64,000 nucleotides of DNA from Octopus sinensis (lineage: Eukaryota). This document shows positions 30,001 to 64,000 of the stretch, one piece after another. The stretch lies in assembly GCF_006345805.1 (NCBI RefSeq), contig NC_043020.1, positions 3,286,001 to 3,350,000 of the forward strand, in the 5' to 3' direction. The stretch's first letter is position 1, and each line of letters starts with the position of its first letter. The position numbers were made by a program.

Positions 30001-33000
30001 AAAGGAATTTTGTTAATTCGTTGTTCAACTCCATTCTTTCATTTATTTGTATTAAAAAAAAAAACACAAATTTCCACACGATAGCACGTGATCTCTGCCC
30101 TAGGCATGTAGCTTCAACCATGTTTTTCTGACGTGAATTTGCTACCCAGGTATCGGTTAACCGAATTATCCATAATAAGATAATTCATTCAACTACTCAA
30201 TTATATATATATATATATATATATATATATATATAATATATATATATATATATATATATACATATATATAAGGTGGGTTAAGTTACTAGGGTGTTTTAAA
30301 GATAAGTAATTCAAATTAGGTTGTGATATGAAAAAAAGGATATAGAGACTTTTCCTCCATTTCTTGTGTTTCCATCCCATTGGAACCTTTGTGCTTGACA
30401 CATGACAAGAAGTGCTGATTGTAACCTCTAACTTTATCTTTGCAGACAAGAAGCCATCCAAGCCACAATCAGTGAGAAAGACGCGAACATTGCCTTACTT
30501 GAAATGACCAGTACCAAAAAGCAACGGCATGTCGAAGACATCACAAGACTTGAAAAAGAGAAGGAAAAACTAGCTCAACAACTTAAGGAATTGGTAAGTT
30601 TTAAGAACAACAAATAAGAAAAAAAAAATCACCAAAACACAAAAAAACAAAGGCAAGATGAAGATTACTTTTTCTTCAATATCACATTTTTGTGAACGAT
30701 AACCTTATTCTTTTATTTGTTTCTGTCATTAGACTGCAGCTGTAGGAGGTCTCTTTTGTGAACAGCTAAGTCACATGGATGTAAACAAACCATCACTTTT
30801 TGATAAGTTGAGTGGAAGAACAAAGACAAACAATCACACACACATAAAGATTATGTATTTATATGGCAGGCTTCCACACAGTTTCCATTTATCAAGTTCA
30901 CTCAACAGGCATTGTTGGCCTGGGACCGTGGTAGAAGACATTTGCCTTAGGTACTGCACAATGGAACTGAACTTAAAACCATGCAGTTGCAGAGCAAGCT
31001 TCTTAAACACGTGGCCATGTCTTTATACTCTGAGATCAAATCTTGTTGATATTGTAATATCTTGACATAAAATTAACAAAGCGAATGTCATTTATGTCCC
31101 CCCCCCCCTTGATCTCTGATGTCATCTTACAAATTCCACCAAGATGGCATGAATCAGCCAAGCTTTACCTGCTAGAAATAGCAACCCAAATGCTTTTAAA
31201 CCAGATCTCAATGCTGGATGTTCAAGAACCAAATGAAGAGCAGATTTTCAATCCTGGAATCATCCTGATTCCAAAAATGGTTTATGTCTTATGTAGAGCA
31301 GATGTAGGCTGACAGACAGGACAGACAGAATTTCACATTCATGATTAAAGATTGACCCTCTTTTTTGTGGTGTTTTCTGTATTTGTTTAATGTTGTTGTT
31401 GTTTCTTTGTAGACTGAAACTCGTATGCGTCTCCTGCAGAAGAAGAAAGAACCTTCAACCACTGGAAGCCAGAAGTCTCTTGTACACCGTATGAAAGGTG
31501 CCACAGATGAACAGGTAGAGAACTTTGACCGTGATCGCCGGTCAGCAGATGCTACGGCCACTGGTGCTGCCGACGCTTCTGCTGCAGCCGCTGCCATGCC
31601 TGAGTCTGTGTCCACGTCCTAGCACACACTTTCTACCCTCTTTCTCCCTCTCTCTCTCTCTCTCTCCTTTCACTCTGCCTGCTGCTTCTGCTTTTAACCT
31701 ATGTGTATGGCTGTGTGTTTGTATGAATTATATATAAATGTTTATATATATATACATACATACAGAGATTGTGTGTGTGTGTGTGTGTATATGTGTATAC
31801 ACACACACACACAGGCATGTATGGGTGTGTGTAATTATTGTACAGTCTTTCATTTATACATGTTTAGTTAAACAAAGCACCGGTGGGTCTATTAACCAAT
31901 TTCTATTCTAATCTTTAATATTACTTTTGGTTAATATAGGAAAGAGATCTGAAATGTTTTATGTTAAAGGAAGAAGAAATTTTTTCTACACACTTAAGAC
32001 CAAGTTTGTAACCCTCTTCAAAGTCAAAGTGTTAAAAGCCAGTTTATGGTTAGTAAGTGCACAGGGGGTCCATGTAGATGGTGCTTTCTCAGTTGTTTCT
32101 TATATTCACTAGAAAGCACTTCAATAACTGGCAGGATGTCTGATAAAATCACTGAAGTCAAGGATGCTTAATGTACCCCTGTTGCCACGCCGACTGGGAT
32201 TCTGGGTGTTATCAATGTAATACAATAAGCTTATATGTAAAACTGAAAGTTGTTAACACCATAGCAGTTGTAACATTGGTCAAACATCCACAGACCTTTT
32301 TAGATTTTTGACTATGCACATACAAGGCAAGGCCATGTAAGCTTATGTAATTTTTGACTTCAAACAGAAAAATCTGGGGAAAAGTGATAGGAATCTCATC
32401 AGTAATGGTTTTTAAGATAACATGTTTGAAAGAAATTCTGTTCTTTATTTACACAAATATATGTAAATGTGTGTGTTTGTGTGTGTATGTGCTACCATAC
32501 CACTATTATCTCTCTCAAAGCTCCTTTGTGTCTCTTTTTTTTACCACTCCCACAACCACCTCCACTGTCACCATAAAGTTTTATATGTTACATTTTTGTT
32601 TTTTTAAAATATGGAACTCCACATTTTTTCTTTATTTTTTCAAACTTATTTTTGGTGCTCCTATTTTTATATATTTTATATATATACTTTTTTTTTTACC
32701 TTATTTATTTCTATGAATCTGTATTTTTCTAAAAACAGTTTATACTGTGTTTCATTTTGTGTGCATGTGTGTACATTTGAAGAAATAAAAAAAAAAACCC
32801 ATAATAATGATAATAATGATAGTAATGATAATAATAATAATAATACACCCCGCTCCCTCACTACAAATGTTAATGTAAGTTTTTAGTTTATCATTTTACA
32901 CCAAAATATTTTTAGTTATTAAATTTTTTCTTGTGTGTTTTTCCCAGTTTTTGTTACTCCACATTTTTTTGCTGGTGTTTTGTTTGATAAATTTTTTTAA

Positions 33001-63000: not shown

Positions 63001-64000
63001 ATTATGCCAATATCTTACTACAGAGGGTCGGAGCTTCCTACCCAGAATTATTAGACAATTTTGTTTCCATGATGGAATCATCTGATACGGAGAGTTGTCA
63101 AAGCACGTGACACATGCAGGCACACACACATGCACACGTACAAATACGGGCATGCACATACACACAAATACACACCCACAGACCTCTCACAGCCCTCCCC
63201 CTCCACACAGTTATTATTATCATCATATAGTGTGATCGCCGGGGAAGGGGATGCTCTCCATCTCTGTTCTTCTCCCTCTCCCCTCTCTCTCTCTCTTTCT
63301 CTCCCTCCCTCATCTGTTGAGATGGGTCCTGCATTCACATTTTAATACATCTTTCTTTTTTCTTTACATTGAAGCTGAGTATATATATGTTTGAAAGTAT
63401 GTATATATGTATATTTACATTTATATGTGTGTGTGTATATATATATATATATGTATGTATGTATGAATGTATGCGGAGCTTTCAACTGGTAGCACCCGTA
63501 TGTACAAATTGTTTGCGAAACATCTAAGTATAGATGGGTTTTTTTCTCTCCTTGTTTTTTCTGTGTCCCTTTCTGTAGAAGAGCGTAGGCTCGAAACGTA
63601 AAAGTCTTTTTCTATTCCTGAGCGTTATTCTAATACATCTGTTTGTTTGTTACACTACCTGTCTTTGTCTTTTGTTTTTTTCGTAACCTCTCCCTATATA
63701 TATATATGTGTGTGTGTGTGTTTAAATATACATACATACATACATACATACATACATATAATAATAATAATGTTCATCCGTTGTGGACGATGACCAGAGA
63801 CATGACATGGGAGAAGAAGGCGGGACACATTACGTCTGGTTGTGGCTGATCAGGTGGATGTAAGCTCAGAAGGGGTTCTGCTGCAGGTCAGGCATTGGTG
63901 GTCAGCTGGGAATTAAGGCAAAGACTTGGCCCTGGACCTGCACCGCTCATGGCTTCTTTGTGCTCCTGCAGTCCTGCACCACTGTTTCCATAGCTGCACC

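What the first reader, a model, noticed from the sequence alone, without database searches (positions are those of the whole stretch)
31413..63110. ELKS C-terminal switch in an invertebrate: read-through tail versus 23-kb splice to a Rab-binding-like module
Seen: the donor CAG|gtagag at 31514 sits inside an open frame. Ignoring it yields a 35-aa Ala-rich tail; using it joins ...TDEQ to VIRAVRK... (54814) and then 62952. Known: vertebrate ERC1 switches at the equivalent ...PDQ between a short neural tail and a long FIP-RBD-containing tail. Inference: the switch point is ancient, but here the short form is made by donor skipping and intronic polyadenylation, with a different, novel tail.
Basis: partly seen in the sequence, partly recalled or inferred. 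Interest (0 to 1): 0.7.

Follow-up and report, generated by a model that had tools for sequence, protein, structure and literature searches.

The report
Octopus ELKS gene: two alternative tails
The 3' end of an octopus synaptic-scaffold gene (ELKS) can end in two ways, a short tail read straight through a splice site or a long conserved tail spliced in from 23 kb away, at the same point where vertebrate ELKS switches tails but with a different short tail.

Summary
The window carries the C-terminal two thirds of an Octopus ELKS/ERC gene on the + strand.

**The two ends**
- The last shared exon (31413-31514) ends ...GATDEQ at the donor CAG|gtagag.
- Read-through gives 35 codons and a TAG.
- Splicing joins two distal exons, 54814-54987 and 62952-63110. 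These match the long tail of annotated ELKS from three cephalopods.

**The short tail is real coding sequence**
- A 35-residue tail of the same length, ending ES[AV]STS, closes two spliced transcript-like cephalopod proteins.
- The same tail closes one contiguous ORF on a 283-kb genomic contig.

**Conservation of the switch point**
- It matches vertebrate ...SPDQ.
- Bivalves and gastropods also show short and long forms at this point.
- None of 21 molluscan proteins seen ends in GIWA, and the window holds no GIWA-like exon.

**Not shown**
- The intronic poly(A) site, use of either form in this species, and tissue specificity.
- The cephalopod tail has no significant similarity to the other molluscan short tails.

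This is a new variant of a known kind, of moderate interest.

The parts
5524..30593 (+). Twelve upstream ELKS coding exons, given as tblastn HSP limits and corresponding to residues 453-1055 of the O. bimaculoides ELKS record. The last one, 30446-30593, has acceptor cag|A and donor TTG|gtaagt.
   Evidence: 15 collinear HSPs at 79-100% identity. Pfam Cast PF10174 on single exons, 37.7 bits for 12746-12913 and 49.1 bits for 30447-30593 (profile positions 711-758 of 766). One search gives the sequence.
31413..31514 (+). Exon A, the last exon shared by both forms. It has 34 codons, TETRMRLL...GATDEQ, in phase 0 at both ends.
   Evidence: sequence; 100% identity to P0001; 27 identical of 33 aligned to the cuttlefish-type proteins.
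31515..31520 (+). Donor gtagag, lacking the consensus A at +4 and G at +5. In the short form it is read as codons GTA GAG (V E).
   Evidence: Of this gene's 14 donors in the window, 10 have G at +5. Only 3 lack both +4A and +5G (14320, 25104, 31514).
31515..31622 (+). Read-through extension: 35 codons (VENFDRDRRSADATATGAADASAAAAAMPESVSTS) plus TAG. This is the short tail.
   Evidence: GC 0.62, with 0 of 3,784 intronic GT sites matching it jointly; homologous 35-residue tails in P0002, P0003 and P0121; shuffles reach the observed score in 4, 52 and 191 of 5,000; no Pfam family.
31623..33600 (+). Putative 3' UTR of the short form. Candidate poly(A) signals are AATAAA at 32784 (followed by an A run), ATTAAA at 32918 (followed by a T/GT-rich stretch), and a cluster at 33569-33592. 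This part is inferred, not shown.
   Evidence: The density of such hexamers in the window is 1.83 per kb, so their presence is not evidence in itself.
31515..54813 (+). The 23,299-nt intron removed in the long form. It is rich in microsatellites and repeat copies, and I found no further ELKS-like coding exon in it.
   Evidence: no Rfam family at gathering score.
54814..54987 (+). Exon B, 58 codons (VIRAVRKIEHSKKRLRTLIDQLL...SSEE), phase 0-0. It is the first FIP-RBD-like segment of the long tail.
   Evidence: Pfam RBD-FIP PF09457 at 24.8 bits, E 1.9e-5, cut-off 23.3. Rab11-FIP3 chains, best E 0.0096; 58 of 58 identical to cuttlefish P0005 and 40 of 58 to the bivalve Solemya.
62952..63110 (+). 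Exon C, 52 codons (VRLELHKSDRDCQKLQDYANILLQRV...CQST) plus TGA. It closes the long tail. No AATAAA or ATTAAA follows before the window ends.
   Evidence: RBD-FIP at 22.9 bits, just under the 23.3 cut-off; 50 of 52 identical to P0005..

Best explanation
The window holds the 3' two thirds of an octopus ELKS/ERC gene whose transcript can end in two ways after exon A (...GATDEQ).

**Path 1, the short form.** The donor CAG|gtagag is not used. Translation runs 35 codons into the intron and stops at TAG 31620. The mRNA must then be cleaved and polyadenylated inside the first few kb of the 23.3-kb intron, which makes this a composite terminal exon. The product ends in an Ala/Ser/acidic tail, ...PESVSTS, with no GIWA.

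**Path 2, the long form.** The donor is spliced to exon B (54814-54987) and then exon C (62952-63110). This adds 110 residues homologous to the A-type tail of vertebrate ERC1/ERC2. Exon B passes the Pfam cut-off for the FIP Rab-binding helix, and exon C falls just short of it.

**What decides between them.** I infer a competition between a sub-optimal donor and proximal 3'-end processing. The donor is sub-optimal because its +4 to +6 bases double as the codon after V.

**Shown here**
- Both reading paths exist in the DNA.
- The long path equals annotated cephalopod proteins.
- The short tail is conserved in other cephalopods, in spliced transcript-like contigs and in contiguous genomic sequence.

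**Inferred**
- The poly(A) site.
- The competition mechanism.
- That the short form is the synaptic one, by analogy with vertebrates.
- That the main functional effect is presence or absence of the FIP-RBD-like module.
For: **Gene identity**
- 15 collinear tblastn HSPs to ELKS [Octopus bimaculoides].
- Pfam Cast matches on single exons.

**Long path**
- P0001, P0004 and P0005 (3 of 3 named cephalopod records) read ...TDEQVIRAVRK...SSEE[VI]RLELHK...CQST.
- Exon B is 58 of 58 and exon C 50 of 52 identical between the window and the cuttlefish record. Exon A is 27 of 33.
- The same long tail follows the same junction in Solemya, Littorina, Babylonia, the nemertean Lineus, amphioxus, lamprey and frog.

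**Short path**
- P0002 is 798 aa on a 2,773-nt contig.
- P0003 is 994 aa, with 21 members on 6 contigs, the longest 4,576 nt.
- Both are uninterrupted ORFs spanning what are 12 or more exons here, so they are spliced. Both end ...GATDEQ plus a 35-residue tail V-D-N...ES-A-S-T-S.
- P0003 is 99% identical to the Acanthosepion record over the shared part of the query. One lineage therefore shows both forms.
- P0121 is a 64-residue ORF on a 283,444-nt contig that runs from inside exon A through the same tail to the stop.
- Order-dependent similarity of the octopus tail to these tails: shuffles reach the observed score in 4, 52 and 191 of 5,000.
- The tail is compositionally unlike intron: GC 0.62 against 0.367.

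**Donor.** It lacks +4A and +5G, a state shared with only 2 of the other 13 donors.
Against: **Limits of the evidence**
- No transcript, read or poly(A) evidence from this species was available.
- The open frame by itself is unremarkable: 21% of intronic GT sites do as well.
- Poly(A) hexamers downstream occur at about background density. The first one, at 32784, sits on a genomic A run that could prime oligo-dT artificially.
- The transcript-like contigs could in principle come from partly processed RNA.

**The tail itself**
- It is much less conserved than the long tail: 14-15 of 34-35 aligned residues identical, against 108 of 110.
- It is low in complexity and matches no Pfam family.

**The other records**
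- The three long-form cephalopod records may be gene models, so the 31514-54814 junction is not proven by a read either.
- The weak donor is not unique in the gene.
Confidence: 0.75

Rival explanations
1. Only the long, spliced form is functional. The read-through 'tail' is a by-product: partly processed pre-mRNA or oligo-dT priming on intronic A runs, with a frame that happens to be open.
For: Open frames of 35 or more codons follow 21% of intronic GT sites. An A-rich run sits at 32784-32800 and another at 33593-33602. The tail is low in complexity with no Pfam match.
Against: - A tail of the same length, starting V-[ED]-N and ending ES[AV]STS-stop, is kept in three other cephalopod sequences from a lineage whose exon A is only 27 of 33 identical. 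All differences among them are substitutions, with no frameshift.
- The similarity exceeds composition-matched shuffles: 4 of 5,000 for P0121.
- GC 0.62 is unlike any intron stretch tested.
Confidence: 0.1
2. The short protein is made, but not through intronic polyadenylation. The donor at 31515 is skipped in favour of a cryptic donor downstream of the TAG, which splices to exons B and C. Those exons then serve as 3' UTR.
For: Nothing direct. No poly(A) site was demonstrated, and many GT dinucleotides follow the stop.
Against: Such an mRNA would carry exon junctions far downstream of its stop codon and would normally be degraded (general knowledge of nonsense-mediated decay, not tested here). 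P0003's longest contig of 4,576 nt leaves at most about 1.6 kb beyond its 994-codon ORF. That fits a simple terminal exon but does not exclude this reading.
Confidence: 0.07
3. Exons B and C belong to a separate downstream gene, and the joined models are annotation artefacts.
For: They lie 23 kb and 31 kb beyond exon A. I saw no read-level proof of the junction.
Against: - The same tail follows the same junction in named records of 3 cephalopods, 3-4 other molluscs, a nemertean, amphioxus, lamprey and frog.
- All junctions are in phase 0, with an AG acceptor directly before each exon.
- Exon B has no start codon of its own before VIRAVRK.
- The only other coding-like features found nearby are a hAT transposase remnant and a transposase-like ORF with no Pfam match.
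Confidence: 0.03

Closest known systems
Vertebrate ELKS1/ERC1 and ELKS2/ERC2 C-terminal A (long) and B (short) variants
   Same: - The switch is at the same point, right after the Cast coiled coil...SPDQ in rat, milkfish and lamprey against ...TDEQ here.
- The long tail is homologous and carries the FIP-RBD signature.
- The short form lacks that module. The A/B scheme itself comes from passages of the Held and Kaeser 2018 review, PMC5830537.
   Different: - The vertebrate short tail is DDEEGIWA, a RIM PDZ ligand. The octopus short tail is 35 residues, Ala-rich, and ends ...PESVSTS.
- The vertebrate tail starts with D, so it cannot be a read-through of a GT donor. The octopus tail starts with V, encoded by the donor itself.
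- I could not see the papers that describe the vertebrate exon layout, so I make no claim about it.
C. elegans ELKS
   Same: A single invertebrate ELKS gene with the conserved C-terminal coiled-coil block (review passage).
   Different: The worm protein ends in GIWA. None of the 21 molluscan proteins I saw does. The window has no IWA-stop in any of six frames and no GIWA-like W-x-stop exon on the + strand.
Short-tailed ELKS models of bivalves and gastropods (Potamilus, Pinctada, Saccostrea, Haliotis, Pecten, Patella)
   Same: A short ending directly after the equivalent ...[ST]P[ED][QR] junction. It begins with V in 4 of 6 and ends in Ser in 5 of 6, and it lacks the FIP-RBD part.
   Different: These tails are 14-26 residues of the type VDPY[VM]LTAP.S.... 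The octopus tail shows no significant similarity to them: shuffles reach the observed score in 295 to 3,260 of 5,000. Whether they are read-through in those genomes was not testable here.
Composite terminal exons made by intronic polyadenylation
   Same: A donor inside an open frame, an in-frame stop shortly after it, a long intron, and a sub-optimal donor. The general class is described in PMC5928244 and PMC4227790 (search listing and abstracts only). The textbook case of the immunoglobulin mu heavy-chain secreted/membrane switch is recalled, not checked.
   Different: Here the poly(A) site and its regulation are inferred, not observed.
Rab11-FIP C-terminal Rab-binding domain (Pfam PF09457)
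   Same: Exon B aligns over profile positions 6-39 of 41, above the curated cut-off. It also aligns with Rab11-FIP3 chains over 34 residues, including the I-D of the ...YID... stretch and the ...T.P..LE end.
   Different: - The match to solved structures is borderline (E 0.0096).
- The Y of that stretch is L here.
- Exon C is just under the Pfam cut-off and has no PDB sequence match.
- Exons B and C show no BLASTP similarity to each other.
- No Rab partner is known for this tail. The mapped Rab6 site of ELKS1 is residues 849-922, in the part shared by all variants.

Membership tests
ELKS/ERC/CAST family (Pfam Cast, PF10174) | Long coiled coil matching the Cast profile, collinear with known ELKS proteins | tested here: met
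   single exons score 37.7 and 49.1 bits against a cut-off of 29.1, and a third scores 23.8; 15 collinear HSPs to ELKS [Octopus bimaculoides] at 79-100% identity.
ELKS A-type (long) C-terminal variant | A tail homologous to the vertebrate A tail, joined directly after the ...P[DE]Q junction | tested here: met
   Exons B and C equal the tails of cephalopod records. They align with Solemya (40 of 58 and 25 of 49) and with the nemertean, and the frog and lamprey long tails start at the same junction. The splice itself is taken from database proteins, not from reads.
ELKS B-type (short) variant | C-terminal PDZ ligand ...GIWA that binds the RIM PDZ domain | tested here: not met
   The short tail ends ...PESVSTS. 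There is no IWA-stop in six frames and no GIWA-like exon on the + strand. Sequence beyond base 64000 was not available.
FIP Rab-binding domain (PF09457) | Match to the RBD-FIP profile above the curated cut-off | tested here: met
   Exon B alone scores 24.8-25.0 bits against 23.3. Exon C alone scores 22.9 bits, just below.
FIP Rab-binding domain (PF09457) | Binds a Rab GTPase as a coiled-coil dimer | not testable with these tools
   No partner sequence from this organism was at hand, and no complex job was sent. The known Rab6 site lies elsewhere in ELKS.
Composite terminal exon / intronic polyadenylation | A donor that lies in an open frame, with an in-frame stop in the intron | tested here: met
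   35 codons, then TAG at 31620-31622.
Composite terminal exon / intronic polyadenylation | A used cleavage and polyadenylation site inside the intron | tested here: inconclusive
   Hexamers occur at 32784, 32918 and 33569-33587, but at background density (1.83 per kb). No 3'-end data were available.
Composite terminal exon / intronic polyadenylation | Mature mRNAs that are spliced upstream and unspliced at this donor | tested here: inconclusive
   This is seen for related cephalopods only. P0002 and P0003 are uninterrupted ORFs on contigs of 2.8 and 4.6 kb. It was not tested for the species of the window.

The most novel reading that the evidence does not exclude
Molluscs as a whole lack the GIWA ligand that ties ELKS to the RIM PDZ domain in vertebrates and nematodes. 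They make their short ELKS form by reading through the donor at the ancient switch point instead.

The codon pair V-[D/E/N] that opens the short tail would then hold that donor in a sub-optimal state (G or A at +4, A at +5). The splice-versus-polyadenylation competition would be built into the coding sequence. It would have been kept since before bivalves, gastropods and cephalopods split.

Cephalopods would have replaced the short VDPY...-type tail with a longer Ala-rich one. Their active zones would couple ELKS to RIM by some other contact, or not at all.
Probability: 0.3. Interest if true: 0.6.

Novelty: new variant of a known kind. Interest (0 to 1): 0.45.

Why it matters
[quoted passage not shown] In vertebrates its two C-termini sort it between neuronal (RIM-bound) and peripheral roles.

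This locus shows three things:
- The switch point and the long FIP-RBD-like tail predate the split of molluscs and vertebrates.
- The long tail is almost invariant among cephalopods (108 of 110 residues between octopus and cuttlefish).
- The short form is built differently here, by read-through of the donor, and it lacks the PDZ ligand.

This yields concrete tests. One is whether cephalopod ELKS meets RIM at all through its C-terminus. Another is what the uncharacterised A-type tail binds. A third is whether donor strength sets the isoform ratio in neurons.

The finding is an extension of known biology, not a new kind of system.

Tried and rejected
**Searches for an alternative short-tail exon**
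- I looked for a GIWA-type exon. IWA-stop in six frames gave none. Of 59 W-x-stop sites on the + strand, only one has 3 or more acidic residues, and it is not GIWA-like.
- The motif P[ED]S[LVAI]x(1,2)S-stop occurs once in six frames, at the tail. I built it partly from the octopus tail itself, so I give it no weight.

**Negative or uninformative results**
- Similarity of the octopus tail to the bivalve and gastropod short tails is not significant. I therefore do not claim homology, only the same position.
- Rfam found nothing in the whole window at gathering score.
- TRF and a pattern search show the tail is neither a tandem repeat nor repeated.
- BLASTP of exon B against exon C gave no alignment, so an internal duplication is not shown.

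**Calls that could not be made or answered**
The isoforms hidden in the 16-member cluster of P0001 stayed unseen.
- Wang 2002, Liu 2014 and Kaeser 2009 are not held, so the vertebrate exon layout stayed unchecked.
- For Orvis et al. 2022 (PMC9282427), only accession tables in the supplement were readable. Its SI text on CAST/ELKS, which may describe molluscan tails, was not.

**Literature**
- Four searches and passages read in PMC7456537 and PMC10657410 gave no description of a molluscan or cephalopod ELKS C-terminal switch. A fifth search, on ERC1, ELKS and FIP-RBD, listed no paper using the term FIP-RBD.

**Not used, and why**
- The search of protein representatives returns unnamed hits that could include human ones.
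- I sent no structure prediction, fold search or complex-prediction job. Single helices of 52-58 residues would say little, and I make no binding claim.
- The search for related loci on genome contigs covers only bacteria and archaea.

**Queries**
- Every query made from the window was a single exon, or exon A with its contiguous read-through. I left out joining the exons into one spliced model for a search or fold.
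Full report
**What is in the sequence**

The coordinates in the finding are right.
- An exon with acceptor tag|ACT begins at 31413 and ends at 31514 with ...GAT GAA CAG, followed by gtagag.
- Read in frame, the intron stays open for 35 codons (VENFDRDRRSADATATGAADASAAAAAMPESVSTS; 11 of 35 are Ala) up to TAG at 31620-31622.
- A second exon begins at 54814 after ttag and ends at 54987 with GAG|gtaagc (58 codons).
- A third begins at 62952 after acag and ends with TGA at 63108-63110.
- All junctions are in phase 0. The introns are 23,299 and 7,964 nt.
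- I first set the end of the second exon nine bases too early and corrected it.
- The window has no N.

**Which gene**

- A search with exon A plus its read-through returned ELKS [Octopus bimaculoides] (P0001, 1,198 aa) at 100% identity over the exon A part.
- tblastn of P0001 against the window gives 15 collinear + strand HSPs, from residue 453 at 5524 to the stop at 63110, at 79-100% identity.
- Scattered substitutions occur in the upstream exons. The window is therefore an Octopus close to, but not identical with, that record.
- Single exons match Pfam Cast. The exon 30446-30593 covers profile positions 711-758 of 766. Exon A and both tails therefore lie just past the end of the Cast coiled coil.
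- All window-derived queries were single exons. I left out joining them into a spliced model for any search or fold.

**The long path**

- The three named cephalopod records (P0001; Argonauta hians P0004; Acanthosepion pharaonis P0005) all read ...GATDEQ-VIRAVRK...SSE[EQ]-[VI]RLELH[KR]...CQST.
- Between the window and the cuttlefish record, exon B is 58 of 58 and exon C 50 of 52 identical. Exon A is only 27 of 33. The long tail is thus the most conserved part of this region.
- The same tail follows the same junction in the bivalve Solemya, the gastropods Littorina and Babylonia (and partly Batillaria), the nemertean Lineus, amphioxus (with an insert), lamprey and frog.
- Exon B alone passes the Pfam cut-off for RBD-FIP (24.8 bits against 23.3). 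It aligns with Rab11-FIP3 chains at E 0.0096.
- Exon C alone scores 22.9 bits, just under the cut-off. It has no match among solved structures.
- The two exons show no BLASTP similarity to each other.
- The mapped Rab6 site of ELKS1 is residues 849-922, in the coiled coil shared by all variants, and both A and B variants bind Rab6. These points come from passages of PMC10267580 and PMC7360120. The long tail is therefore a separate FIP-RBD-like module without a known partner, not the known Rab6 site.

**The short path: is it more than an open frame?**

- The open frame alone is not unusual. 21% of 3,786 intronic GT sites give 35 or more open codons.
- Among the 13 other donors of this gene the read-through lengths are 19, 18, 7, 41, 31, 10, 6, 1, 17, 3, 1, 7 and 14 codons.
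- The 105 nt have GC 0.62 in a window averaging 0.367. Only 0.03% of 105-nt windows reach that value, and none of 3,784 intronic GT sites combines it with an open frame of that length.
- The stretch is neither a tandem repeat nor repeated elsewhere.

**The decisive evidence comes from relatives**

- Two unnamed proteins end ...GATDEQ plus 35 residues, VDNSD[ED]VLDEGLQRR[DN]AAAAAGAAASMS[LF][ED]SASTS. They carry no RBD-FIP domain.
  - P0002 is 798 aa on a 2,773-nt contig.
  - P0003 is 994 aa, with 21 member sequences on 6 contigs, the longest 4,576 nt.
- Their ORFs run uninterrupted across what are at least 12 exons here. They therefore derive from spliced RNA.
- P0003 is 99% identical to the Acanthosepion record over the shared part of the query. 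A cuttlefish-type lineage thus shows both forms.
- A third protein, P0121, is a 64-residue ORF on a 283,444-nt contig. It starts at the Met inside exon A and runs through ...GATDEQVDNSDEVLDDGLQRRDAAAAAGAAASMSPESASTS. In that genome too the tail is contiguous with exon A.
- The octopus and these tails have the same length. They start V-[ED]-N and end ES[AV]STS.
- Identity is 14-15 of 34-35 aligned residues. Composition-matched shuffles reach the observed alignment score in 4, 52 and 191 of 5,000 trials.
- Differences among the three non-octopus tails are substitutions only, mostly D/E.
- The first residue, V, is what a GT donor encodes when read through.

**The switch point in other animals**

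- Rat ERC2 isoform 2 and milkfish ERC1a end ...SPDQ-DDEEGIWA.
- Frog ERC1 (...SSPDP-MIQPL...) and lamprey (...SPDQ-MIESLL...) continue into the long tail at the same place.
- The Held and Kaeser review (PMC5830537, passages) describes the vertebrate variants. The long A variant is mostly peripheral. The short B variant carries the RIM PDZ ligand GIWA and is dominant in neurons. The review also shows C. elegans ELKS ending in GIWA.
- Of the 15 named non-cephalopod molluscan proteins I fetched:
  - 6 end with a short tail of the type VDPY[VM]LTAP.S... directly after ...[ST]P[ED][QR] (Potamilus, Haliotis, Pinctada, Saccostrea; Pecten and Patella with variations);
  - 5 have other non-FIP endings (Physella, Lymnaea, Bulinus, Mytilus, Gigantopelta);
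  - 4 have the long tail.
- None of these 15, and none of the 6 cephalopod sequences, ends in GIWA.
- The window has no IWA-stop in six frames and no GIWA-like W-x-stop exon on the + strand. Sequence beyond 64000 is unknown.
- The octopus tail is not significantly similar to the bivalve and gastropod tails (295 to 3,260 of 5,000 shuffles). I claim only positional equivalence.

**How it most likely works**

- Shown: two reading paths diverge at 31514/31515, and both give conserved protein ends.
- Inferred: the short mRNA ends by cleavage and polyadenylation early in the 23.3-kb intron, making a composite terminal exon.
- Candidate signals are AATAAA at 32784 (on an A run), ATTAAA at 32918 (followed by a T/GT-rich stretch) and a cluster at 33569-33592. 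Such hexamers occur at 1.83 per kb in the window, so this is weak evidence.
- No hexamer follows the long-form stop before the window ends.
- The donor gtagag lacks the consensus +4A and +5G. 10 of the gene's 14 donors in the window have +5G, and only 3 lack both.
- Because +4 to +6 are the codon after V (E here; D in the cuttlefish-type tails; D or N in bivalves), the coding sequence itself keeps the donor sub-optimal. I take this as the likely basis of a competition between splicing and proximal 3'-end formation.
- That the short form is the neuronal one is analogy only.

**Rivals**

- A non-functional by-product is unlikely given the conserved length, ends and frame.
- A cryptic downstream donor instead of polyadenylation cannot be excluded without 3'-end data.
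- A separate gene for exons B and C is contradicted by records from six phylum-level lineages and by the phase-0, start-less structure of exon B.

**Novelty**

- The A/B switch of ELKS is known in vertebrates. The long tail in invertebrates and short-tailed molluscan models are visible in public records.
- Four literature searches and the passages I read did not describe a molluscan or cephalopod switch. A further search on ERC1, ELKS and FIP-RBD listed no paper using that term. The SI text of PMC9282427, which treats CAST/ELKS of Aplysia and Octopus, could not be read.
- I rate this a new variant of a known kind: same switch point and same long tail, but a different and differently encoded short tail.

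**Left unchecked**

- The vertebrate exon layout (papers not held).
- Any DNA of other cephalopods or molluscs.
- Any expression data.

Noticed in passing
window 55469-55702 (- strand), in the intron between exons B and C: An ORF fragment matching the hAT transposase C-terminal dimerisation domain (PF05699, 37 bits, E 3e-9). It is a transposon remnant. A transposase-like ORF at 51511-51729 (-) gave no Pfam match.
   Followed up: partly
window 10205-10328 (-), 11461-11706 (+), 15126-15286 (+), 21285-21402 (-), 53137-53211 (+): Five copies of a dispersed repeat, 72-76% identical, scattered through ELKS introns on both strands. It looks like a SINE-like element.
   Followed up: partly
window 49489-49956 and 49960-50451: Two adjacent stretches of about 470 nt whose translations share long identical runs, suggesting a tandem duplication inside the 23-kb intron. 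My self-BLAST listing was cut before these rows, so the DNA identity was not measured.
   Followed up: no
window 33274-33503: This stretch matches its own reverse complement at 76% over about 230 nt, a palindromic element. It lies near the candidate poly(A) cluster at 33569-33592.
   Followed up: no
window 54814-54987 and 62952-63107: Each long-tail exon on its own matches the same part of the RBD-FIP profile (positions 6-39 and 8-39 of 41). The tail may therefore hold two FIP-like helices. The two exons have no detectable BLASTP similarity to each other.
   Followed up: partly
window 5524-30593 versus 31413-63107: Upstream exons differ from the O. bimaculoides ELKS record at scattered residues, while exons A, B and C are 100% identical to it. 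The window is thus from a related species or divergent haplotype, and the C-terminal exons are the most constrained.
   Followed up: partly
one search hit list (not window coordinates): Both cephalopod ELKS clusters from transcript-like contigs (2 of 2) carry the short tail. All 3 long-tail records come from genome annotation or nr. This could reflect which tissues get sequenced, or chance in the choice of cluster representatives.
   Followed up: no
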